Source of the DNA: a virus
UHGV virus genome: UHGV-1366603
DNA length: 64,000 bases
Strand: one strand, 5' to 3'
Made by a program: the position numbers and the translations under genes
Shown: positions 4,307 to 54,531 of the stretch, in pieces
How positions within the stretch are numbered: position 1 is the stretch's first letter
How the letters are laid out: each line of letters opens with the position of its first letter
Notes under the pieces: model-generated
Seen by the model: only the letters and a program-made list of their open reading frames with translations
Databases searched by the model: none
Told to the model about the DNA's origin: nothing

Positions 4307-4332
4307 TCAGATATATATTACCTAGAGGAGAG
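4307..4332 (+). promoter_or_regulatory. Copy 1 of recurring promoter-like motif TCAGATATATATTACCTAG(A/G)GGAGAG
   Basis: Near-identical motif also at 8362, 40079 and 44424, always upstream of a + strand gene and followed by a short hairpin. Confidence 0.5.
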
Positions 4333-8361: not shown

Positions 8362-8387
8362 TCAGATATATATTACCTAGGTGAGAG
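8362..8387 (+). promoter_or_regulatory. Copy 2 of recurring promoter-like motif
   Basis: TCAGATATATATTACCTAGGTGAGAG followed by inverted repeat gtgagag...ctctcac (8381-8402). Confidence 0.5.
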
Positions 8388-40078: not shown

Positions 40079-40130
40079 TCAGATATATTTTACTTAGGTG
40101 AGTAGGGGCTGAAGTGCGAATTCAGCCCCT
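40079..40130 (+). promoter_or_regulatory. Copy 3 of recurring promoter-like motif plus downstream hairpin
   Basis: TCAGATATATTTTACTTAGGTGAG followed by inverted repeat aggggctgaa-gtgcgaa-ttcagcccct. Confidence 0.45.
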
Positions 40131-44423: not shown

Positions 44424-44449
44424 TCAGATATATATTACTCAGGTGAGAG
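44424..44449 (+). promoter_or_regulatory. Copy 4 of recurring promoter-like motif
   Basis: TCAGATATATATTACTCAGGTGAGAG followed by an imperfect inverted repeat; precedes the secreted-protein array. Confidence 0.5.
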
Positions 44450-44978: not shown

Positions 44979-45371
44979 GTGAAAATGAATATCAGAACTA
45001 TACTTTATTCAATCATTATTTTCTGTGCAATCGGTATTACTGGCACTTATGCTTTCGGCGATTCGGACGTCCGCCATTACGAACCGGCTCCTGACTCGCC
45101 CATTATCAACCCGGATGAGTCCCCTACGTTAATGCGCAGTTTCGGTAAACTGCAAGTTTATCGCTTAGTACGTGGTGAAACGTGTACCGGATTACTCATT
45201 GCTGACACCCGTGCACAGGTCTACCAACGTCTGACGGATATCGCCTGCGAACAACCAAAAGTCATGTCGGTCAGTATTCATCCGTTAGAGGTCGGTAACT
45301 ATACTGCTGTGGACTTCTTCCATAATGCAGAACTGATTGGTCGTATCACTTTAAATCGTAGCGCTGAATAA
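44979..45371 (+). CDS. Small secreted protein 2 (signal peptide)
   Basis: GTG at 44979 or ATG at 44985; hydrophobic ILYSIIIFCAIGITGTYA N-terminus. Confidence 0.5.
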   Translation: MKMNIRTILYSIIIFCAIGITGTYAFGDSDVRHYEPAPDSPIINPDESPTLMRSFGKLQVYRLVRGETCTGLLIADTRAQVYQRLTDIACEQPKVMSVSIHPLEVGNYTAVDFFHNAELIGRITLNRSAE

Positions 45372-45389
45372 TTTAATGGAGAATTTACA

Positions 45390-45872
45390 ATGAAACGTTT
45401 ACACACCCTGATGCTTTTCGTGGCTATTCTGTTCACAGGCTTTACCTTTAACACAGAAGCGGCTACCGTAAAACAAGCACTTAGCTGTAACCCGGAAGCC
45501 TGGGCTGAACAACCTGGTGCGTGTCCTGACATCAATACGCTCTATACCGACGACGCGACTTATAAAGCCGCAATCGATAAAGCGTTGAAACCTGTCGGAC
45601 TAGACGGGTTATTCGGTAAAGATGGTGTAATGAATGGTCCTGGCGGCGATGTTATTCCCGTGCAAATCAACGGTAAAGTCTGGCTTGAGTCTACCGCTTG
45701 CAAAAGCAATGCTTGTGGTTGGGAATACATCACGACGCTTTATAACCCGCAGACCCATGTCGTGGTAGGTTACTATTACAACGTCGACCCAGGTTACCTG
45801 GTCTGGTTCGGCGATATCGGCGTTAACGAATTCGCCTATCTGGTTAAGAAATACGTAGCTACGGTTAATTAA
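45390..45872 (+). CDS. Small secreted protein 3 (signal peptide)
   Basis: MKRLHTLMLFVAILFTGFTFNTEAA; four Cys in mature part. Confidence 0.55.
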   Translation: MKRLHTLMLFVAILFTGFTFNTEAATVKQALSCNPEAWAEQPGACPDINTLYTDDATYKAAIDKALKPVGLDGLFGKDGVMNGPGGDVIPVQINGKVWLESTACKSNACGWEYITTLYNPQTHVVVGYYYNVDPGYLVWFGDIGVNEFAYLVKKYVATVN

Positions 45873-45887
45873 TTTAAGGAGTCTGTC

Positions 45888-46298
45888 ATGAAAACGTTTA
45901 TCAAAACTTTACTCGTTGCTGTAACTGTTCTGTTCTCTCTTAACGTAGCAGCAAAAACAATAAAGCTACCGGCGGGTATCAAATACGTCAACAGTACCGA
46001 TGAATTCTACTGCACTGAAATTGACGGCCTGTATTGCCAGACAAAGAATTTGTTTGAATACAAAGGTAACAGATATGTTTTCGTTGTTGAGCAAGGTGGT
46101 GCCTGGTGCTACGACAGCCCTATGTCGGTACTCAACCTGGAAACTTGGAAAGCACAGAAAATTGAATACAAAGACAACCAACTGTGTTCAGGCGAAAACA
46201 AACCGTTCTTCAAAATCAAAAATGGTGTGCCGACTGTAGGTATTATCGACACCTCTGGAGCACCCATCGTTGTAGCTCAGGACAAACTTAAAATCTAA
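45888..46298 (+). CDS. Small secreted protein 4 (signal peptide)
   Basis: MKTFIKTLLVAVTVLFSLNVAAK; four Cys. Confidence 0.55.
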   Translation: MKTFIKTLLVAVTVLFSLNVAAKTIKLPAGIKYVNSTDEFYCTEIDGLYCQTKNLFEYKGNRYVFVVEQGGAWCYDSPMSVLNLETWKAQKIEYKDNQLCSGENKPFFKIKNGVPTVGIIDTSGAPIVVAQDKLKI

Positions 46299-46308
46299 GG
46301 AGTAAACC

Positions 46309-46698
46309 ATGCGTCTTATCTGCGCTTTGTTGGCGTTTTTCTCAATCGGAGTTATGGCTTCTACACACATCGACGATTTATTACTTACCCCGGCAACGAA
46401 CACAGACTATCACTACAACCCACCGGGTTTTGAAGTCTGCGAAGGCGATGCAGGCGAATGCCAAGAAGTTGGCGCAGATGGACGCTATATACTCGTAAAA
46501 GCAGACGGCGGGACAACCTGCCCTGCGGGTTATTATTTCGTACTTGACGCTGTAGCAAAAGAGGTACTTCCTGTAACGACCAAAACGTGTGACCCCACAG
46601 TTGTACTAACGCTTGCGAAAAGCAAATCACGTGACCGCCATCTTATCGTCATCGAAGAACGCGGTGAGATGCTAGGCGCTATCGAATTAGATTACTGA
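46309..46698 (+). CDS. Small secreted protein 5 (signal peptide)
   Basis: MRLICALLAFFSIGVMAS; Cys pairs CEGDAGEC and CPAG...C. Confidence 0.55.
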   Translation: MRLICALLAFFSIGVMASTHIDDLLLTPATNTDYHYNPPGFEVCEGDAGECQEVGADGRYILVKADGGTTCPAGYYFVLDAVAKEVLPVTTKTCDPTVVLTLAKSKSRDRHLIVIEERGEMLGAIELDY

Positions 46699-47308: not shown

Positions 47309-47917
47309 ATGAACGAAATTACTTTGGTTCGTTTTATTGAAGCGATGCATCTAAACGAAGCTAATCCGCACTCTCCGTTATTCATCGATTTAATGGAGGA
47401 AGAAGTCGAAGGGTTCTTAGCGTACCCGCGTTTGAAAGACTACTTCGAACGTAAAACACCAACCGCTTACGAAAAGCTGATGTACGCGTTAGATAACCGT
47501 ACTACGCTAAACAATACGCCGTTTAAAGCGCTGGAAGCAATAGACCCTACCGGGGGTGCAGGTATCCCACAACGTGTTGTGTTCTACTACATCGACAACG
47601 GACGTATTAAAGCCGACGTTGTAAACTGGATCTCCGAAGGGGAAATCCCAGAAACGCGTACTTTTAACCTCTGTCCGGTAGAAGAAGGTTGGGTTGCAGG
47701 AACGCATTATTCCTATCCGTATCAAAGCATCAAATCACCTTATCTGTATCCGGTGTATTTAGATGACGTTACGCCAGGGAAATGTATTCCCGTTACCAAT
47801 CTGATTTGTTTACTGACGATGGAAGTTGTTGCGTCGGACGCAGGCCAGGCTTGGGTTGAGCAATCGAAGAATATCCAAAACTGGCAGGAGATGGGTTACA
47901 AACTCTATCAGCCGTAA
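47309..47917 (+). CDS. Hypothetical protein
   Basis: 202-aa ORF with RBS aaggaaa; no phosphoesterase (Mre11/SbcD) motifs seen. Confidence 0.5.
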   Translation: MNEITLVRFIEAMHLNEANPHSPLFIDLMEEEVEGFLAYPRLKDYFERKTPTAYEKLMYALDNRTTLNNTPFKALEAIDPTGGAGIPQRVVFYYIDNGRIKADVVNWISEGEIPETRTFNLCPVEEGWVAGTHYSYPYQSIKSPYLYPVYLDDVTPGKCIPVTNLICLLTMEVVASDAGQAWVEQSKNIQNWQEMGYKLYQP

Positions 47918-47924
47918 TACCACG

Positions 47925-47974
47925 AGAGAACCTTCGGGTTCTCTCCCTTCTCTTTTATTTTTTTTTCTTTTTAC
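47925..47974 (+). terminator. Intrinsic terminator
   Basis: Hairpin gagagaacc-ttcg-ggttctctc followed by a T-run longer than 15 nt. Confidence 0.75.
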
Positions 47975-48002
47975 ACCACGCTCCGTGAATATGGAGGTGG
48001 AC

Positions 48003-50507
48003 ATGTTAAAAGTTGAACGTATTGTACTTAAAGGATTTACCGGAATGGGATTACACGAAATCGAAACCTTCGATTTTACTATCCATTCCCCGACCACCAT
48101 TATCCTCGGTGGTAACGGGTGCGGTAAGACCAGCTTACTGTCCGTGTTTCTACCTATCGCACCTTCGAAATCCGAATTCCGTGACGGGGGTTCTTACACC
48201 AACATCTGTTTGGTTAACGACCATCGTTACAAATTTAAGGTTGCACGTAAAGGCAACTCACTGGTTTGCGATATCGAGAACCTGACGACGGGTACCAAAA
48301 TCGTCGAACAAGGTAATGCGAAAGTGTATAACTCTCGTGTAGAAGAAATCACGGGCATTACAAAAGAGATTAAAGAGTTACTGAACGGAGAAGTGCTTTT
48401 AACGGATGCAGGAACGGAGCTGCGTCGTAAGTGGTTCTACCGTTTAAGTACGTCAGACTTAACTTACGCGTTAGGTTTTTATCAACGTTTACGAAAAAAC
48501 CTGACGATGCTAAACGGTGGTATTGAAATCACCAGCCGTAAAATTGCAGAGTTGCGTACCCGCGTAATTGATAACGAGGAAGAACGTCAGCAGTTAGCAA
48601 CACGGTTAAAAGCATTAGAAGTAGATTTACGTGAACTCAACAAACAGATTGAACAACTGCCTGGTCTGAATCGTGACGTTACGGTGGCAACTATTCAATC
48701 GCTATTGCTTAAAATCGAAGCACCGATTAATGCTATCTTGGAACACCGTGGCGGATTACCTACGGAAGAACAGGTAGAGGAAGCACGACGGATTGAAGCC
48801 ACTGCCCGTGAAGCGGTGGTCTCTGCTGAAACAGAACTATCCATGCTAAACAAAGATTTGTCTTTGTTGATGGACGAGTCCACTCGCCAAGATTACCTGA
48901 TGCGGAATCACGAGGGGTTAAAAAACACGGTTGCGAAACTGCGCGAGTTATTAAAGCAGTGGGACACTGAGCATCTTTTCCCTGAACTGTTTGCGGAGAC
49001 CGTTAACATCGACCAGCTTAAAGCAGCGACGGATGCGCGTGTCTGGGGACAACGTTTAGGAACAACGCTGGATGCTATTAAATCAACGGAACGGTTGAAC
49101 GTACTGGAAGAGAAACTGTTGACCTTAGACCAAAACTCATCTGGGTTGCGTGACCGGTTACAACGCGTTGAAAACGTATTGCAGAACCTCAACCACGAAC
49201 GGAATCACTATTTGGAAACTGCCGAGGTTGATTGTCCGCAGTGTCAATTTAAATTCCGTCCGGGTGTCCGTCGATCGCTGCCTGAATTGGAAGAAGCCAT
49301 TCGTGGTCAGATGGAGCAACGTAATACGTTACAGACTCAACTTGATTCCGTATTGCGAGACCGTACGGAATTAGAGTCAGACGTTAATTACATGCGTCAA
49401 GTACGGGAAATTGTTTTAACATACTCGAAAGACCCGGTATTGAGCTTGTTCTTTAAACGACTCCAGGAGCGGAATGTCTTTACGGATAACCGTAGTCAGT
49501 TTGGTAGTTTGTGCGCAGAGTTTGATCGTGAACTTTATTCTGCAATTGAGTACCACGAAACGAAACACCGTTTCGCTAAAGCGGAAAAAGAGTGGGAAAA
49601 TGCAGTTGCAGCGGTAGGTAACGTTGACGGTGCACTACAGCAGAAAATTGCCTTCCAGCAGGAACGTTTGGGTAAGGCAACAGAAACGCTCTCAGAGCGC
49701 CGTAGAGAGCACGCAGTTGCTAATGATACCTTTTGTTATCTAAACGAACTTAAAGCCACTGTAGACAATTTTAATGCGGTTTTTGAGCGTTTAGAGAACG
49801 ATGTTAAGGTAACATTAACCAACACGGTGGTCGAAACGTTATTAAACGCCCGAGAAAACAAGTTGGATGCGTTCACCACAGCACGGGAACGGTACCGTCA
49901 GATGGAAAACGAACTCAACCAACTTACTGCGTTAGAAAAGGAGTTATCAGATTTACAAGCGCAGCAATTCAATAACAAGCTGATGATTCAAGCGTTCTCA
50001 CCTGAGAAAGGGGTATTACGCAAATACTTCTACAACGCTATCGTGAGAATCACGGAATTGATGACGCGGTATATCGAACAAGTCTGGACCTACCCTATGC
50101 GGGTCATGCCGTGCGACTTAACCGACGGTGACTTAGACTACACGTTCCCAGTGCAGTTGAAAACCCATCCTGAGCCGGTACCTGACGTGCGGAAAGGGTC
50201 GAAAGCGCAGCGAGCCATCTTTAATTTGATGTTTCGTTTAACCGCTTACAAAGCCCTGAAACTTCATCAGTATCCGCTACTGTTGGATGAACCGTCAGAA
50301 GGGATGGATGAGGAACACCGAAATAACCTCGTCGGGTTTATTAAAACCCTGGCGAATTCCGGTGAGTTCTCTCAGTTACTGGTGGTATCTCACGAAGCAG
50401 AAATTCATTCAAAACTTAACGAAGCCGCATACTGTGTTATTGAACCTGAAGGCGTAACACTGCCTGCGGTATACAACGAGGGAGTAAAAATTGTCTACGC
50501 AAACTGA
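48003..50507 (+). CDS. SbcC/Rad50-like SMC-family ATPase
   Basis: Start trimmed to ATG 48003 (RBS ggaggtgg). Walker A GGNGCGKTS; long central coiled coil with CPQC zinc-hook-like motif; C-terminal LLLDEPSEGMDEEH (Walker B) and VVSHE. Confidence 0.7.
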   Translation: MLKVERIVLKGFTGMGLHEIETFDFTIHSPTTIILGGNGCGKTSLLSVFLPIAPSKSEFRDGGSYTNICLVNDHRYKFKVARKGNSLVCDIENLTTGTKIVEQGNAKVYNSRVEEITGITKEIKELLNGEVLLTDAGTELRRKWFYRLSTSDLTYALGFYQRLRKNLTMLNGGIEITSRKIAELRTRVIDNEEERQQLATRLKALEVDLRELNKQIEQLPGLNRDVTVATIQSLLLKIEAPINAILEHRGGLPTEEQVEEARRIEATAREAVVSAETELSMLNKDLSLLMDESTRQDYLMRNHEGLKNTVAKLRELLKQWDTEHLFPELFAETVNIDQLKAATDARVWGQRLGTTLDAIKSTERLNVLEEKLLTLDQNSSGLRDRLQRVENVLQNLNHERNHYLETAEVDCPQCQFKFRPGVRRSLPELEEAIRGQMEQRNTLQTQLDSVLRDRTELESDVNYMRQVREIVLTYSKDPVLSLFFKRLQERNVFTDNRSQFGSLCAEFDRELYSAIEYHETKHRFAKAEKEWENAVAAVGNVDGALQQKIAFQQERLGKATETLSERRREHAVANDTFCYLNELKATVDNFNAVFERLENDVKVTLTNTVVETLLNARENKLDAFTTARERYRQMENELNQLTALEKELSDLQAQQFNNKLMIQAFSPEKGVLRKYFYNAIVRITELMTRYIEQVWTYPMRVMPCDLTDGDLDYTFPVQLKTHPEPVPDVRKGSKAQRAIFNLMFRLTAYKALKLHQYPLLLDEPSEGMDEEHRNNLVGFIKTLANSGEFSQLLVVSHEAEIHSKLNEAAYCVIEPEGVTLPAVYNEGVKIVYAN

Positions 50508-50691
50508 TTGGTGGCGTCAGTTACTAAGCGTTTTAGGGTTTAGCGTCATGGTGCTGGTTGCCATTCTGTACGTGCTATTTTGTATAACGGCGATTTTATG
50601 GGTGGTCTTAGCGTACGCGATTAGACTCGCCTGGGGTTCAATTTGGCACCAACGCGAATGTGAGTGGCGGTGTGTTGGAGGGAAGTCATGA
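50491..50691 (+). CDS. Small membrane protein
   Basis: TTG start with RBS ggag; hydrophobic stretch LLSVLGFSVMVLVAILYVLFCITAILWVVLAYAI. Confidence 0.4.
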   Translation: MSTQTDWWRQLLSVLGFSVMVLVAILYVLFCITAILWVVLAYAIRLAWGSIWHQRECEWRCVGGKS

Positions 50692-50798
50692 TTGAGGGTA
50701 TTCTGTTAACACTTGGGTCGTTGTGGATTATTGGGAAATCCCTCAACTGGCTGATTAATAAGTACGGATGGGCTTTCAAAGGCTCTACGCACAGTTAA
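50688..50798 (+). CDS. Small hydrophobic peptide (36 aa)
   Basis: ATGA overlap with the previous ORF; MIEGILLTLGSLWIIGKSLNWLINKYGWAFKGSTHS. Confidence 0.25.
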   Translation: MIEGILLTLGSLWIIGKSLNWLINKYGWAFKGSTHS

Positions 50799-50848
50799 GT
50801 TAGAACCCCCTCCTGGGTAACTGGGAGGGCGTTTTACGAGGGAAAACC

Positions 50849-50977
50849 ATGACTGTTGTCAATACTACCAATGCTGCAATTGGCGCTTTATACAACGCGG
50901 AACTAACATGGGGTGCGGGTTTTATCACCGTACTGCTTCTCGCCGCAGCCGCTTTTATCATTGGACGTTGGTTTTAA
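50849..50977 (+). CDS. Small hydrophobic peptide (42 aa)
   Basis: RBS gagggaaaacc; MTVVNTTNAAIGALYNAELTWGAGFITVLLLAAAAFIIGRWF. Confidence 0.3.
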   Translation: MTVVNTTNAAIGALYNAELTWGAGFITVLLLAAAAFIIGRWF

Positions 50978-51010
50978 TTTCATCTTTTTTGCGTCTGTAA
51001 GGTCTGATAA

Positions 51011-51454
51011 ATGGAAATTTATTTGTTGAACGCACTTTCTAAAATCGGTGAAGAACAAGCGAAAGATTTACTCGCACTTCATTACCGTTACTTAGATCAT
51101 CAAGCAACGATGCTGAAAATCAAAACCGCTGTACCGAAATTAAACGTGCGTCAACTGATCGAAGGCAACTGTGTTGTTCTGATTTATATCGACGATGTTG
51201 CGGTGGGTTATTGCAGTTACCGCAATCGCAACGGGGTACTCAAAATTCGTTCGTTATACGTGCTGCCTGATTACCGTCAACGCGGGGTAATGAAAGAAAT
51301 CTTCAAAGCGATAGCCGCTGATGAAGCATTCGGTGAAATTGCCATTGGGATGTACACGAAGTGCAAAGAAGCGAAAGAGTATTTCATTCGTCGTGGCTAC
51401 AAAGCAACCTATTCTCACGATAAAGAATGGGTGGATTTCAGCAAAACTTTCTAA
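51011..51454 (+). CDS. Possible GNAT-family acetyltransferase
   Basis: 147 aa; LYVLPDYRQRGVMKEIF loosely fits GNAT motif A; weak. Confidence 0.4.
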   Translation: MEIYLLNALSKIGEEQAKDLLALHYRYLDHQATMLKIKTAVPKLNVRQLIEGNCVVLIYIDDVAVGYCSYRNRNGVLKIRSLYVLPDYRQRGVMKEIFKAIAADEAFGEIAIGMYTKCKEAKEYFIRRGYKATYSHDKEWVDFSKTF

Positions 51455-52695: not shown

Positions 52696-52795
52696 ATATT
52701 ATCATTAGGGCACACAACAAAGGAGTTCCAGCTGTCCGCGCCGTGATTTCGTTCTACGGAACACGGAAATGTATAAATCCAACTGGAGAACTAGT

Positions 52796-53482
52796 ATGTT
52801 TCGTATTTTCTTTCTTTTACTGGTAACACTTTTCGCGTTTAACGCATACGCATCCAAATCCGCACCCAGTGCCAAACACCATCGTGAATTCGAAATGATT
52901 CAAGACCGTTTCGAACGTGTAAAACCGTTGATTGTGGAAATCTCCCGAAAGCAGGGCGTCGATCCTAAGTTGATGACCACGCTAATCTATCGGGAATCGC
53001 GGTTTAATCCGAAGGCGTATAATCGAACGTCTAAAGCGCACAGTCTGGTTCAGATGCTACCGAGCACAAAGCGTAATTTGCTAAAACTCTACGGTGCCGA
53101 AATCGGACTTAGTCGTAACGCGGATTTGTATAATCCTCGTAATGCGGTGCTATTGGCTTCCGTCTACGTTAAACATTTAGAAAAGGGGTTGACTAAACGA
53201 CTCAAACGCAAGCCCACTATTGCAGAAATTGCATTGGCTTATCACTGGGGTGAAAGTGGTGCACACGCCAGGATTAAAAGCAAGTCTCGGGCAGCACAAC
53301 GAGAAATGGCGAGCTTTATGAAAGATGCAACGTTCTACAGTGCGAAAATCGACAAGCCTGTAGCATCTCGTCAGCTTGCGTTTGCGAAGAAACCAGAACG
53401 CCAGATTCAGTTAGCGGAAGTTAACCGAATTTGGGATACGATAAACACCAGTTTTCCATTTAAACAAGGAGTCACCCTTTGA
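52796..53482 (+). CDS. Lytic transglycosylase (SLT domain) with signal peptide
   Basis: Start at ATG 52796 (RBS ggaga). Signal peptide MFRIFFLLLVTLFAFNAYA; catalytic-region pattern LIYRESRFNPKAYN...AHSLVQMLPST...AYHWGE typical of SLT-type transglycosylases. Confidence 0.7.
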   Translation: MFRIFFLLLVTLFAFNAYASKSAPSAKHHREFEMIQDRFERVKPLIVEISRKQGVDPKLMTTLIYRESRFNPKAYNRTSKAHSLVQMLPSTKRNLLKLYGAEIGLSRNADLYNPRNAVLLASVYVKHLEKGLTKRLKRKPTIAEIALAYHWGESGAHARIKSKSRAAQREMASFMKDATFYSAKIDKPVASRQLAFAKKPERQIQLAEVNRIWDTINTSFPFKQGVTL

Positions 53483-53988
53483 GCATCGTTGTAACCGATT
53501 GGTATAAAGGTATCACTAAGGCTACCCAAATTACTGCCCAGGACGTGTACAGTATCGTTCGTAGCAGTAACGAAGACCAGATAAAGTCCGACGAAGACTT
53601 TGCAACGCGTCATGAGTTTTACGATGCCCTTAAAACGGCTTTCGGTGATGACGAAGAAGAAGGTTTAGAGTTTGACTGGAACGTCAACCTTGCCTTGTTG
53701 TGGATTTGCGGATTACGTCCGAGTGTGAAAGACACGGAGCAAGGGAAAGTTCTGTTGTGGCGCTACACCGGTAAATACAATCCGAACCAGGTCTTTAAAG
53801 AAGCGTATATGGAAGCCACTGTAGAGTTACAGAATCTGCTGTTGGGTGAGAACACCTACTGTCAACGCAGCTTCCTGACGATTCTGGAGAAACTGGCGAC
53901 TACACACAAAATCTGGCGTCAAGCAGATGCCCCTGAACACATCTTCGTTCTGGAATATGCTGTGATTCCAAACCAACCGTTCTTTTAA
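53479..53988 (+). CDS. Hypothetical protein
   Basis: 169-aa ORF with TTG start overlapping the upstream stop. Confidence 0.4.
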   Translation: MSIVVTDWYKGITKATQITAQDVYSIVRSSNEDQIKSDEDFATRHEFYDALKTAFGDDEEEGLEFDWNVNLALLWICGLRPSVKDTEQGKVLLWRYTGKYNPNQVFKEAYMEATVELQNLLLGENTYCQRSFLTILEKLATTHKIWRQADAPEHIFVLEYAVIPNQPFF

Positions 53989-54051: not shown

Positions 54052-54531
54052 ATGTTGAAGTTTATCTGGCGTTACCCAACCCGCTTTTGGTTCGTGGTAT
54101 TAGAGGTAATCACCGTTTTACTGTTAGTGACGTTCGTAAACGCCTCTACGAAACAAATGGTGATTTTCTGTGTATTCGTGGCTATACCGCTGTGGGTGTT
54201 TGCAAAGATTATTAAGTTTTACATGATAAGCTGGGCGAACTACACCTGTCCATTTAAACCCAGAGAAATCATGAACTGGTTGATGTATATCGAAGACCGT
54301 TTACCCGCTCAGTCTAAAACGTTAGGTTGGCAATCGATGTTGGATATTGCGCTAGAAACAAACGCAAAATTCCCTGGGTCAAAGAATCCTTATTTGCTGC
54401 TGGCTGTTATTGTTGCCCAGCAGAAACGTGCAGGCGAACGTTGGTTACCGAAAGAAGCGAAAGAGTATATTCGTAAACATCCGAAGGCTTTCTATTCCGT
54501 AGGTCAATGGCGTAACCTCCCACTCTTTTAA
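54052..54531 (+). CDS. Hypothetical membrane protein
   Basis: Two hydrophobic segments (FWFVVLEVITVLLLVTFV; MVIFCVFVAIPLWVFAKII); RBS aaaggag. Confidence 0.5.
   Translation: MLKFIWRYPTRFWFVVLEVITVLLLVTFVNASTKQMVIFCVFVAIPLWVFAKIIKFYMISWANYTCPFKPREIMNWLMYIEDRLPAQSKTLGWQSMLDIALETNAKFPGSKNPYLLLAVIVAQQKRAGERWLPKEAKEYIRKHPKAFYSVGQWRNLPLF

What the first reader, a model, noticed from the sequence alone, without database searches (positions are those of the whole stretch)
50491..50977. Three consecutive tiny hydrophobic ORFs after the ATPase gene
ORFs of 66, 36 and 42 codons each encode a single strongly hydrophobic helix, and the first two are linked by overlapping start and stop codons. Clusters of such peptides in phages often act as membrane-targeted regulators of lysis timing, exclusion or host transporters.
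Basis: seen in the sequence. Interest (0 to 1): 0.35.

Follow-up and report, generated by a model that had tools for sequence, protein, structure and literature searches.

The report
Tiny membrane-protein genes after phage SbcC
The three tiny hydrophobic reading frames are real, selected genes for miniature inner-membrane proteins, part of a cassette shared by SPN3US-like jumbo phages; what they do is still unknown, so the finding is sound but fairly ordinary.

Summary
ORF1 (50491-50691, TTG, 66 aa), ORF2 (50688-50798, 36 aa, ATGA overlap) and ORF3 (50849-50977, 42 aa) exist, each behind a GGAG-type ribosome-binding site. Such a trio is rare by chance: 1 of 5000 shuffles, and nowhere else in the window.

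They are genes:
- All three frames persist in relatives at dS about 1, with dN/dS 0.16-0.33.
- Among 11 near-identical genomes, polymorphisms are 10 synonymous to 2 non-synonymous in ORF1 and 8 to 0 in ORF3. ORF2 is 3 to 3.
- Indels are intergenic only.

The window is an SPN3US-like, nucleus-forming-type jumbo phage. The ORFs match SPN3US gp187 (phrog_16515), an often unannotated gene (phrog_13448) and gp189 (phrog_29196). They belong to a tightly overlapping cassette, SbcC-A-B-(C)-D-(E)-acetyltransferase; this lineage has lost C and E.

No family with a known function matches. My best guess, at low confidence, is accessory inner-membrane micro-proteins made with the SbcC message that act on the host envelope, in superinfection exclusion or lysis timing. 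They are probably not the main holin, because a better-placed 2-TM candidate lies near the secreted SLT endolysin. They are also unlikely to be an SbcCD membrane anchor. Interest is modest.

The parts
47997..50507 (+). SbcC/Rad50-like SMC ATPase gene (836 aa from the ATG at 47997). Homolog of SPN3US gp186. Its last 17 nt overlap ORF1.
   Evidence: phrog_77 'SbcC-like subunit' E 6.9e-92. 76-79% nt identity to SMC genes of Asesino and SPN3US-group phages. SPN3US gp186 is essential (PMC5105663).
50478..50484 (+). Shine-Dalgarno-like GAGGGAG, 6 nt before the ORF1 TTG, lying inside the SbcC coding sequence.
   Evidence: Read from the sequence.
50491..50691 (+). ORF1, family A: 66 aa, TTG start. Short polar N-terminus, about 38 hydrophobic residues, then a charged C-terminal tail with the conserved R-x-CEWR motif. 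Ortholog of SPN3US gp187.
   Evidence: phrog_16515 E 3e-6; SPN3US gp187 matches the same phrog at E 3e-30. Frame kept in L003-L006, Asesino, SPN3US and SNUABM_29. dN/dS 0.30-0.33. SNPs 10 synonymous to 2 non-synonymous, P 1.6e-5, the best of six frames.
50677..50682 (+). Shine-Dalgarno-like GGAGGG, 5 nt before the ORF2 ATG, inside ORF1.
   Evidence: Read from the sequence.
50688..50798 (+). ORF2, family B: 36 aa. N-terminal hydrophobic segment, then a basic amphipathic tail with the conserved ...LW.IGK...W.IK..GWAF.G motif. ATGA overlap with ORF1.
   Evidence: phrog_13448 E 1.8e-12. tblastn hits in 31 SPN3US-group phage genomes, always at the same position. Aligned across four clades. dN/dS 0.26-0.32. 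SNPs 3 synonymous to 3 non-synonymous, inconclusive.
50801..50836 (+). GC-rich hairpin (core CCCUCCUGG/CUGGGAGGG) followed by GUUUU. Probably a terminator, attenuator or transcript-stabilising element between ORF2 and ORF3. It occupies the place where relatives carry gene C.
   Evidence: MFE -22.8 kcal/mol, z -2.85. A hairpin of different sequence sits at the same place in L005 and L006. The simple terminator scan did not list it, because it has only 4 U.
50838..50843 (+). Shine-Dalgarno-like GAGGGA, 5 nt before the ORF3 ATG.
   Evidence: Read from the sequence.
50849..50977 (+). ORF3, family D: 42 aa. Polar N-terminal half (MTVVNTTNA...), a C-terminal transmembrane segment, ending ...GRWF (tail-anchored type). 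Ortholog of SPN3US gp189.
   Evidence: hhalign of the window-clade profile against the Seoulvirus gp189 profile: 96% probability, E 4e-9. gp189 is phrog_29196. dN/dS 0.16-0.22. SNPs 8 synonymous to 0 non-synonymous, P 2e-5. The exact protein is called on hundreds of contigs.
51011..51454 (+). GNAT acetyltransferase gene, the conserved downstream boundary of the cassette (SPN3US gp191).
   Evidence: phrog_3810 E 2e-26. Pfam Acetyltransf_1 on the called genes. Synteny in all relatives.

Best explanation
Shown here: the three ORFs are genuine protein-coding genes of an SPN3US-like jumbo phage. They are the A, B and D members of a clade-specific cassette of miniature membrane proteins: SbcC - A - B - (C) - D - (E) - acetyltransferase. 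This lineage has lost C and E.

Inferred from the overlaps: ORF1 and ORF2 have no room for a promoter of their own. They are read from the SbcC message by start/stop-overlap coupling (a 17-nt overlap, then ATGA). ORF3 is initiated separately, from its own Shine-Dalgarno element after a conserved hairpin.

Inferred from hydropathy and charge distribution: the products insert into the host inner membrane.
- A is either a helical hairpin or one long helix, with a charged cytoplasmic tail.
- B is an N-out/C-in single span with a basic amphipathic tail.
- D is a tail-anchored peptide.
- A and B probably act together.

Inferred by analogy only: the most likely role is that of accessory micro-proteins made from the DNA-replication phase onward that act on the host envelope, through superinfection exclusion/immunity or fine control of lysis timing. 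They are less likely to be the primary holin or part of the DNA-repair machine.
For: Genes:
- Each ORF has a Shine-Dalgarno element.
- The trio is rare by chance: 1 of 5000 shuffles.
- Frames are retained at dS about 1, with dN/dS 0.16-0.33, against about 2 for an out-of-frame control.
- Within the population, ORF1 has 10 synonymous to 2 non-synonymous SNPs and ORF3 has 8 to 0. Indels are intergenic only.
- No Rfam match.

Families and cassette:
- phrog_16515, phrog_13448 and phrog_29196.
- The same order and tight overlaps are seen in Seoulvirus, Erskinevirus and Machinavirus.
- A and B are present in every relative examined. C, D and E come and go, which is typical of accessory genes.

Membrane targeting: Kyte-Doolittle maxima of 1.9-3.0, and Lys/Arg concentrated after the hydrophobic segments.

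Envelope theme of the neighbourhood:
- Four secreted small proteins lie upstream.
- A signal-peptide SLT transglycosylase and a 2-TM protein lie downstream.

Precedent: T4 imm and sp, small envelope exclusion genes, likewise sit inside DNA-replication gene clusters.

Fast evolution: 58-67% aa identity where the neighbouring acetyltransferase is 85%. This fits proteins that work at the host interface.
Against: - No experiment or homology ties any of the three to exclusion or lysis. All matching families are 'unknown function'.
- There is no similarity to T4 Imm or Sp or to the phiKZ holin.
- Expression timing is inferred only from linkage to SbcC.
- ORF2 alone shows no population-level excess of synonymous change (3 to 3).
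- Start/stop overlaps are common throughout this genome, so coupling to SbcC need not mean anything functional.
- Topologies are hand-inferred. Single-sequence AlphaFold2 was uninformative.
Confidence: 0.4

Rival explanations
1. Lysis module. ORF1 (and gene C in relatives) is a class II holin or pinholin, and the tiny single-span peptides are antiholins or lysis-timing partners. Together they control activation of the Sec-exported SLT endolysin by collapsing the membrane potential.
For: - ORF1 has holin-like size and layout: 66 aa, about 38 hydrophobic residues with small residues (FC-I/A/G) at the centre, and a charged C-terminal tail.
- The SLT enzyme at 52769-53482 and its SPN3US homolog gp198 ('putative endolysin') carry signal-peptide-like N-termini, so a depolarising partner would make sense.
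- Lysis genes of this clade are undescribed in the papers found.
Against: - The genes are not adjacent to the endolysin. About 1.8 kb and three unrelated genes (acetyltransferase, a 124-aa protein, a macro-domain protein) lie between.
- A 2-TM protein sits two genes downstream of the endolysin in both the window (54052-54531) and SPN3US (gp200). It is the better positional holin candidate.
- ORF1 and ORF2 are co-translated with an essential recombination gene, not with late genes.
- Klebsiella phage Miami has SbcC plus a signal-peptide SLT but no such tiny TM ORFs.
- No holin family in Pfam, NCBIfam or PHROGs matches.
Confidence: 0.2
2. Membrane partner of the SbcCD-like nuclease. ORF1 (perhaps with ORF2) binds the SbcC/SbcD complex and tethers or regulates it at the membrane, as was proposed for T4 gp47.1 with gp46/gp47.
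For: - The ORF1 start overlaps or abuts the SbcC stop in every relative examined (17, 17, 11 and 1 nt overlaps, or a 3-nt gap).
- Thomas et al. 2016 raised exactly this idea for SPN3US gp187 (PMC5105663).
- CR5 also has a membrane protein directly after SbcC.
- T4 gp47.1, a predicted membrane protein, overlaps gene 47.
Against: - No sequence similarity to T4 gp47.1.
- SPN3US and Asesino form a phage nucleus (review PMC13282480). From general knowledge of phiKZ-like phages (not tested here), DNA replication and recombination happen inside that compartment, so an inner-membrane tether for SbcC is hard to reconcile.
- More distant phages with the same SbcC (phiKZ, Miami, pVp-JHP1101, phiKT1028, SNUABM_54) have no membrane ORF directly after it.
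- Gene overlaps are common in this genome regardless of function.
Confidence: 0.12
3. Not genes: chance ORFs in a spacer, or ORFs read on the wrong strand.
For: - Gene callers never called ORF1 in eight related contigs.
- ORF2 is unannotated in several GenBank records.
- The antisense frame of ORF3 is also open in several relatives, and its SNPs score 7 synonymous to 1 non-synonymous, because third codon positions coincide.
Against: - Synonymous excess is strongest in the proposed frames.
- dN/dS is well below 1.
- Protein-level conservation reaches clades with no detectable nucleotide similarity in this stretch.
- The antisense ORF3 frame has a stop in pEa_SNUABM_29, and by visual comparison of the translations there its sequence is much less conserved than the + frame. 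All neighbouring genes are on the + strand.
- Shine-Dalgarno elements precede all three.
- The shuffle test gives 1 of 5000.
Confidence: 0.03

Closest known systems
SPN3US gp187, the unannotated ORF at JN641803 171588-171692, and gp189 (PHROGs 16515, 13448, 29196), with their equivalents in Erwinia phages Asesino/phiEaH2 and the Machinavirus group
   Same: - Orthologous by sequence.
- Same order and the same tight overlaps after the SbcC gene and before the acetyltransferase gene.
- Same sizes and hydrophobic layout.
   Different: - The window lineage lacks the 2-TM gene C (gp188, phrog_18173) and the 35-aa gene E. A hairpin-containing spacer stands where C would be.
- The proteins share only 29-59% (A), 31-66% (B) and 36-67% (D) identity with these relatives.
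- None of these relatives has an assigned function either.
T4 gp47.1 (46-aa predicted membrane protein overlapping gene 47, the SbcD homolog)
   Same: A tiny hydrophobic protein whose gene overlaps a gene of the phage SbcCD-type recombination nuclease. The analogy was already drawn for SPN3US gp187 (PMC5105663).
   Different: - No sequence similarity.
- T4 47.1 lies upstream of the SbcD gene, whereas ORF1 lies downstream of the SbcC gene.
- T4 has no phage nucleus.
- The function of gp47.1 is itself only a suggestion.
Class II holins/pinholins, and the phiKZ lysis cassette (gp141, 141.1, 142, 143, 144; PMC12894885)
   Same: Small proteins with one or two transmembrane segments and charged tails. 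The phage belongs to the same broad group of jumbo phages as phiKZ.
   Different: - Not adjacent to the endolysin gene.
- No similarity to phiKZ gp142 or to any holin family.
- The phiKZ holin has a large cytoplasmic domain and a soluble endolysin. Here the SLT enzyme has a signal-peptide-like N-terminus, and another 2-TM protein sits nearer to it.
T4 Imm (83 aa, membrane) and Sp (97 aa, periplasmic) superinfection-exclusion proteins
   Same: Small envelope-targeted accessory proteins encoded inside clusters of DNA-metabolism genes.
   Different: No sequence similarity. Exclusion activity is untested here.
Bacterial small membrane-protein regulators such as AcrZ, MgtS, KdpF and CydX (recalled from general knowledge, not tested)
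   Same: Single-span peptides of 30-50 aa that work by binding larger membrane proteins.
   Different: No homology was looked for beyond the family libraries. No target is known.

Membership tests
phrog_16515 / SPN3US gp187 family (ORF1) | Significant profile match | tested here: met
   E 3e-6 over residues 1-60 of 66. SPN3US gp187 matches the same profile at E 3e-30. tblastn hits only in Asesino/phiEaH2/STsAS-type phages, at the same locus.
phrog_16515 / SPN3US gp187 family (ORF1) | Position: start overlapping or abutting the stop of the SbcC/SMC gene | tested here: met
   17-nt overlap in the window. Overlaps of 17, 11 and 1 nt, or a 3-nt gap, in Asesino, SPN3US, Huxley and ChrisDB.
phrog_13448 (ORF2) | Significant profile match and position directly after gene A | tested here: met
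   E 1.8e-12. 31 phage genomes with tblastn hits at the syntenic site. Start overlaps the stop of A by 1-4 nt in the window, SPN3US, Asesino, Huxley and ChrisDB, and lies 11 nt after it in L005 and L006.
phrog_29196 / SPN3US gp189 family (ORF3) | Significant sequence relationship | tested here: met
   hmmscan alone is weak (E 0.64), and tblastn against the phage collection found nothing. Profile-profile comparison gives 96% probability, E 4e-9 over 40 of 42 columns. Same position before the acetyltransferase gene.
Holins (class II / pinholin) | At least one transmembrane domain, small size, charged C-terminus | tested here: met
   ORF1 fits by hydropathy and charge. These features are shared by many non-holin proteins.
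Holins (class II / pinholin) | Gene clustered with the endolysin and spanin genes | tested here: not met
   The SLT gene lies 1.8 kb downstream, with three unrelated genes between. Another 2-TM gene lies closer to it. No lipobox was apparent by eye in the N-termini of the neighbouring proteins; no systematic spanin search was run.
Holins (class II / pinholin) | Match to a described holin family | tested here: not met
   No Pfam, NCBIfam or annotated PHROG match. No similarity to phiKZ gp142.
Holins (class II / pinholin) | Timed lethality, with premature triggering by energy poisons | not testable with these tools
   Needs expression experiments.
T4 gp47.1-like SbcCD membrane partner | Tiny TM protein gene overlapping an SbcC/SbcD-homolog gene | tested here: met
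T4 gp47.1-like SbcCD membrane partner | Sequence similarity to gp47.1 | tested here: not met
   Best blastp E 0.15, over 9 residues.
T4 gp47.1-like SbcCD membrane partner | Physical association with the nuclease complex | not testable with these tools
   No multimer prediction or interaction data were available.
Superinfection-exclusion proteins (T4 Imm/Sp type) | Sequence similarity | tested here: not met
   No blastp hit better than E 0.7.
Superinfection-exclusion proteins (T4 Imm/Sp type) | Blocks DNA entry of secondary phage | not testable with these tools
   Needs plating or efficiency-of-plating assays.

The most novel reading that the evidence does not exclude
ORF1 and ORF2, the universally retained and translationally coupled A-B pair, form a dedicated membrane complex. 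This complex either docks the SbcCD-type nuclease at the inner membrane of a nucleus-forming phage, for example to destroy host or superinfecting DNA outside the phage nucleus, or it is a previously unrecognised lysis-timing device for Sec-exported endolysins in SPN3US-like jumbo phages.
Probability: 0.12. Interest if true: 0.6.

Novelty: new member of a known kind. Interest (0 to 1): 0.25.

Why it matters
Functions are unknown for most proteins of phiKZ/SPN3US-type giant phages (abstract of PMC5105663). Their smallest genes are the ones most often missed:
- ORF1 was not called in any of eight related contigs.
- The ORF2-type gene is missing from the SPN3US, Asesino and Proteus phage 7 records.

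Showing that these frames are under purifying selection gives annotators three (in relatives, five) real micro-protein genes. It also defines a compact, conserved A-B core that could be tested in the genetically tractable SPN3US system.

If the cassette controls exclusion or lysis timing, it would bear on how these long-latency, nucleus-forming phages manage the host envelope. Beyond the 2026 phiKZ lysis-cassette study, the papers found here say little about that. As it stands, the result is a solid annotation improvement rather than a surprise.

Tried and rejected
- **Family libraries.** Pfam, NCBIfam and a PDB profile search with the B-family alignment gave nothing. PHROGs gave only 'unknown function' families.
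- **Rfam.** The region 50300-51200 gave no RNA family, so an RNA-gene reading was dropped.
- **Exhaustive phmmer of ORF1 against 1.84 billion representatives.** It found only the sister-clade ortholog and one spurious repetitive 526-aa protein.
- **Word-indexed protein search.** It returned only near-identical copies. ORF2 was too short to submit.
- **tblastn of ORF3 against the phage collection.** It found nothing. The link to gp189 needed a local search and a profile comparison.
- **Single-sequence AlphaFold2 of ORF1.** It gave one long helix. I do not treat this as evidence on topology, and I did not run fold searches on it.
- **Pairwise comparisons.** The window's 159-aa and 169-aa proteins against phiKZ gp142 and gp143, and ORF1 against the 159-aa protein, gave no alignment. 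A weak ORF1-like tblastn hit to that protein in L006 (E 0.08) is therefore put down to composition.
- **Comparisons with T4 and phiKZ proteins.** T4 gp47.1, 46.1, 46.2, 45.2, Imm and Sp, phiKZ gp141, gp142 and gp166.1, and CR5 gp171 all gave nothing.
- **Promoter and terminator scan.** The sigma-70 scan found fewer sites than expected by chance; phiKZ-type phages are thought not to rely on host promoters (from memory).
- **TTTKACACCAC motif.** It occurs after two terminators but is not significantly enriched, so I did not use it.
- **SPN3US infection proteome paper.** It could not be retrieved, so no protein-level evidence was obtained.
- **Scan of IMG/VR with the B-family alignment.** It added no new lineages.


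Full report
**1. The observation**

- ORF1: 50491-50691, TTG start, 66 aa.
- ORF2: 50688-50798, ATG start, 36 aa.
- ORF3: 50849-50977, ATG start, 42 aa.

The ORF1 stop and the ORF2 start share ATGA (50688-50691).
- ORF1 begins 17 nt before the end of the upstream ATPase gene, which stops at 50507.
- Each ORF is preceded at 5-6 nt by a GGAG-type Shine-Dalgarno element: 50478-50484, 50677-50682 and 50838-50843.
- A GC-rich hairpin (50801-50836, -22.8 kcal/mol, z -2.85) fills most of the 50-nt gap between ORF2 and ORF3.

All three peptides are hydrophobic. The best 17-residue Kyte-Doolittle means are 2.97, 1.89 and 2.48.

The trio is unlikely by chance. Three same-strand, non-overlapping hydrophobic ORFs of at least 36 aa within 530 nt appeared in 1 of 5000 dinucleotide-preserving shuffles. 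This is the only such spot on either strand of the window.

**2. Are they genes?**

The window has no megablast match in the phage collection. Its ATPase gene is 72-79% identical at the nucleotide level to the 'SMC domain' or SbcC-like gene of Salmonella phage SPN3US, Erwinia phage Asesino and related jumbo phages.

Four IMG/VR contigs and eight further metagenomic or NCBI contigs of 220-230 kb carry the same locus.

*Comparison with the two diverged contigs (L005, L006).* Here dS is about 1, and the neighbouring acetyltransferase is 85% identical in protein.
- All three frames stay open.
- Length differences occur only at C-termini, in multiples of three.
- dN/dS is 0.30-0.33 for ORF1, 0.26-0.32 for ORF2 and 0.16-0.22 for ORF3.
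- For comparison, dN/dS is 0.05 for the acetyltransferase and about 2 for a stretch I accidentally extracted out of frame, which serves as a control.

*Polymorphism among 11 near-identical genomes.*
- ORF1 has 10 synonymous and 2 non-synonymous polymorphic sites (P 1.6e-5 against the expected 23% synonymous). This is the best of all six frames.
- ORF3 has 8 synonymous and 0 non-synonymous sites (P 2e-5).
- ORF2 has 3 and 3, which is inconclusive. All three non-synonymous changes are in one genome.
- Every indel is intergenic.
- Three of the synonymous ORF1 sites lie in codons 15-19, upstream of the internal ATG that one database entry used as the start (P0001, 47 aa). Together with conservation of the N-terminal 'QTDW.R' segment, this supports the long TTG-initiated form.

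*The antisense frame of ORF3.* It shares third codon positions with ORF3 and scores 7 synonymous to 1 non-synonymous. However, it has a stop in phage pEa_SNUABM_29, its translated sequence looks much less conserved than the + frame in the same comparison, and it lies opposite to all neighbouring genes.

No Rfam family matches the region. I conclude that all three ORFs are translated genes, with ORF2 resting mainly on between-clade conservation.

**3. What they are**

*Family assignments.*
- ORF1 matches phrog_16515 (E 3e-6), the family of SPN3US gp187.
- ORF2 matches phrog_13448 (E 1.8e-12). tblastn finds it in 31 phage genomes, always at the same site.
- ORF3 is related to SPN3US gp189 (phrog_29196) by profile-profile comparison, with 96% probability and E 4e-9. 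Plain searches missed this link.

*The cassette.* Reading the loci of SPN3US, Proteus phage 7, SPLA3, pEa_SNUABM_29, Asesino, ChrisDB, pEa_SNUABM_4 and Huxley shows one conserved cassette between the SbcC gene and a GNAT acetyltransferase gene:

| Gene | Size and features |
|---|---|
| A | 49-66 aa |
| B | 32-46 aa |
| C | about 70 aa, two TM segments, phrog_18173 |
| D | 42-43 aa, starts 'MT..N..NA', ends 'WF' or 'LF' |
| E | 34-39 aa, ends '...LTQGWF' in most relatives |

- The genes are packed with 1-20-nt overlaps from the SbcC stop onward.
- A and B are present in every relative examined.
- D is absent from Erskinevirus and Machinavirus.
- C and E are absent from the window's lineage, where the hairpin-containing spacer stands in place of C.

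*Annotation gaps.*
- B is unannotated in SPN3US, Asesino and Proteus phage 7.
- E is unannotated in SPN3US.
- ORF1 was not called in any of the eight contigs.

*Distribution.* The families are confined to this phage group. Exhaustive phmmer of ORF1 against 1.84 billion representatives returned only the sister-clade ortholog and one spurious repeat protein. An IMG/VR scan with the B alignment added no new lineage.

**4. Protein anatomy (inferred from sequence)**

*A (ORF1).*
- It has a short polar N-terminus with one Arg.
- A run of about 38 hydrophobic residues follows, with a conserved 'LY..FC' and small residues at its centre.
- The tail is charged, with Arg/Lys/His and a conserved 'R.CEWR' motif shared with Seoulvirus.
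- The hydrophobic run is too long for one span, so a hairpin with both ends in the cytoplasm is plausible. Single-sequence AlphaFold2 drew one continuous helix over residues 4-62 (pLDDT 87.6), which I regard as uninformative.

*B (ORF2).*
- It has a 16-22-residue N-terminal hydrophobic segment and a basic amphipathic tail.
- It carries the best-conserved motif of the cassette, 'LW.IGK...W.IK..GWAF.G'.
- The positive charges follow the segment, which suggests N-out/C-in.

*D (ORF3).* It has a polar N-terminal half and a C-terminal transmembrane segment that ends three residues before the stop, which is a tail-anchored layout.

No structure, domain or named family matches any of them.

**5. Context**

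*Upstream gene.* The upstream gene is the SbcC/Rad50-like ATPase (phrog_77, E 7e-92). Its SPN3US ortholog gp186 is essential (PMC5105663). SPN3US and Asesino are reported to form a phage nucleus (review PMC13282480).

*Transcription units.*
- A strong terminator-like hairpin precedes the SbcC gene (47924-47945).
- There is no space for a promoter between SbcC, ORF1 and ORF2, so these three are one unit.

*Downstream genes.*
- The acetyltransferase (51011-51454).
- A 124-aa protein.
- A weak macro-domain protein.
- An SLT transglycosylase with a signal-peptide-like N-terminus (52769-53482). This is the homolog of SPN3US gp198 'putative endolysin', which has the same kind of N-terminus.
- A 169-aa cytoplasmic protein.
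- A 159-aa protein with two TM segments (54052-54531). SPN3US has an 86-aa 2-TM protein, gp200, at the same position.

*Further upstream.* Four consecutive small proteins with signal-peptide-like N-termini lie at 44979-46698, behind one of four exact copies of CAGATATATWTTAC.

*More distant relatives.* The association with SbcC fades.
- CR5 has a 113-aa 2-TM protein right after SbcC.
- phiKZ, Klebsiella phage Miami, Vibrio phages pVp-JHP1101 and phiKT1028, and Erwinia phage pEa_SNUABM_54 have no membrane ORF directly after it.
- The SbcC ... macro domain ... SLT synteny nonetheless persists in pVp-JHP1101, and SbcC ... SLT in Miami.

**6. How it most likely works**

*Shown.*
- They are real genes.
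- They are clade-restricted.
- They encode hydrophobic peptides.
- A and B are tightly linked to SbcC and to each other.
- The outer members of the cassette turn over.

*Inferred.*
- Co-translation from the SbcC message.
- Insertion into the host inner membrane.
- Joint action of A and B.

*The functional guess.* I rank 'accessory envelope-acting micro-proteins (superinfection exclusion or lysis-timing control)' first, at a confidence of about 0.4 for the whole statement. Most of that rests on the gene and membrane part. The reasons are as follows.
- They would be made from the replication phase onward.
- They evolve fast: 58-67% identity against 85% for the neighbouring gene.
- Their outer members are gained and lost like accessory genes.
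- The neighbourhood is rich in exported proteins.
- T4 offers a precedent, with imm and sp embedded among replication genes.

*Rival: lysis module (0.2).*
- It is attractive because the SLT enzyme appears to be Sec-exported and ORF1 looks like a class II holin.
- It is weakened by the distance from the endolysin gene and by the better-placed 2-TM candidate.
- It is also weakened by the linkage to an essential recombination gene, and by Miami, which has the SLT without the peptides.
- The only characterised lysis cassette in this phage family, phiKZ gp141-144 (PMC12894885), is contiguous, and its holin and regulator show no similarity to the window proteins compared.

*Rival: SbcCD membrane tether (0.12).*
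- It was already suggested for gp187 by analogy with T4 gp47.1, and the conserved overlap fits it.
- There is no similarity to gp47.1.
- A membrane tether is hard to square with replication inside a phage nucleus.

*Rival: not genes (0.03).* The evidence in section 2 argues strongly against it.

**7. Comparison with what is known, and novelty**

- The ORFs are members of existing families of 'hypothetical' phage proteins, and one of them has already been remarked on in print.
- They are not members of any holin, spanin, exclusion or small-regulator family that could be tested.
- What is new here is modest:
  - evidence of selection on all three frames, weaker for ORF2;
  - the definition of the five-gene cassette with its conserved A-B core;
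  - its reduction to three genes in this widespread lineage, where the exact ORF3 protein is indexed in about 900 blocks of the public assembly collection (565 contigs counted for its cluster), including about 225-kb contigs and a Salmonella Chester assembly;
  - several annotation gaps in reference genomes.
- I rate it as a new member of a known kind, with interest 0.25.
- The most novel reading not excluded is an A-B complex that docks the SbcCD nuclease at the membrane of a nucleus-forming phage, or that forms a new lysis-timing device. I give this about 0.12 probability.

Noticed in passing
window 4308-4321, 8363-8376, 40080-40093, 44425-44438 (+ strand): CAGATATATWTTAC occurs four times exactly, all on the + strand (0.9 expected). 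Three copies lie in intergenic regions just after terminator-like hairpins. It resembles, from memory, the AT-rich early-promoter element of phiKZ-type phages. The copy at 44425 heads the operon of small secreted proteins.
   Followed up: partly
window 44979-46698: Four consecutive small ORFs (128-160 aa) each begin with a signal-peptide-like hydrophobic segment. Three match PHROGs of unknown function (9424, 8968, 5248). This looks like an operon of exported proteins of unknown role.
   Followed up: partly
window 52769-53482; SPN3US gp198 (L013 9059-9781): The SLT-domain transglycosylase (Pfam SLT, E 4e-14), homolog of the SPN3US 'putative endolysin', has a strongly hydrophobic N-terminus ending ...FNAYA/SKS. 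The SPN3US and Klebsiella phage Miami homologs have similar N-termini. This suggests a Sec-exported enzyme, unlike the soluble phiKZ gp144.
   Followed up: partly
window 53479-53988 and 54052-54531; SPN3US gp199 and gp200: Right after the SLT gene come a conserved cytoplasmic protein (phrog_8114) and a protein with two TM segments (159 aa here, 86 aa in SPN3US). The latter is a positional holin candidate for this clade. It has no similarity to phiKZ gp142 or gp143.
   Followed up: partly
L002 3386-3490 and 3783-3890 (SPN3US); L001 3392-3502 (Asesino); L007 (Proteus phage 7): Conserved small genes are missing from reference annotations. The B-type gene is missing in SPN3US, Asesino and Proteus phage 7. 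The 35-aa E-type gene is missing in SPN3US, whose annotated gp190 (L002 4136-4258) instead looks doubtful.
   Followed up: partly
window 50801-50836; L005 and L006 about 2803-2826: Stable hairpins sit at the same intergenic position but with different sequence (CCCUCCUGG...CUGGGAGGG versus AUACCCUC...GAGGGUAU). Similar GC-rich hairpins close many other intergenic gaps in the window. They are probably the phage's terminators.
   Followed up: partly
L015 (Vibrio phage pVp-JHP1101), L018 (Klebsiella phage Miami): The gene order SbcC ... macro-domain protein ... SLT transglycosylase is also found in Vibrio phage pVp-JHP1101, and SbcC followed closely by the SLT transglycosylase in Klebsiella phage Miami, two more distantly related jumbo phages. 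This suggests an old linkage between the recombination ATPase and the secreted transglycosylase.
   Followed up: no
whole window; L021-L028: The phage lineage has no megablast match in the 50,697-genome phage collection. Yet the exact ORF3 protein occurs in about 900 blocks of the public assembly collection, on contigs of 220-230 kb, and in a Salmonella enterica Chester assembly (GCA_008917135.1). It appears to be a common enterobacterial jumbo phage that is absent from this isolate collection.
   Followed up: partly
window 47826-47996: The mechanical ORF for the ATPase starts at a TTG at 47826. The conserved protein (836 aa, as in Asesino and SPN3US) starts at the ATG at 47997, after a terminator-like hairpin at 47924-47945 and a T-rich tract.
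   Followed up: yes
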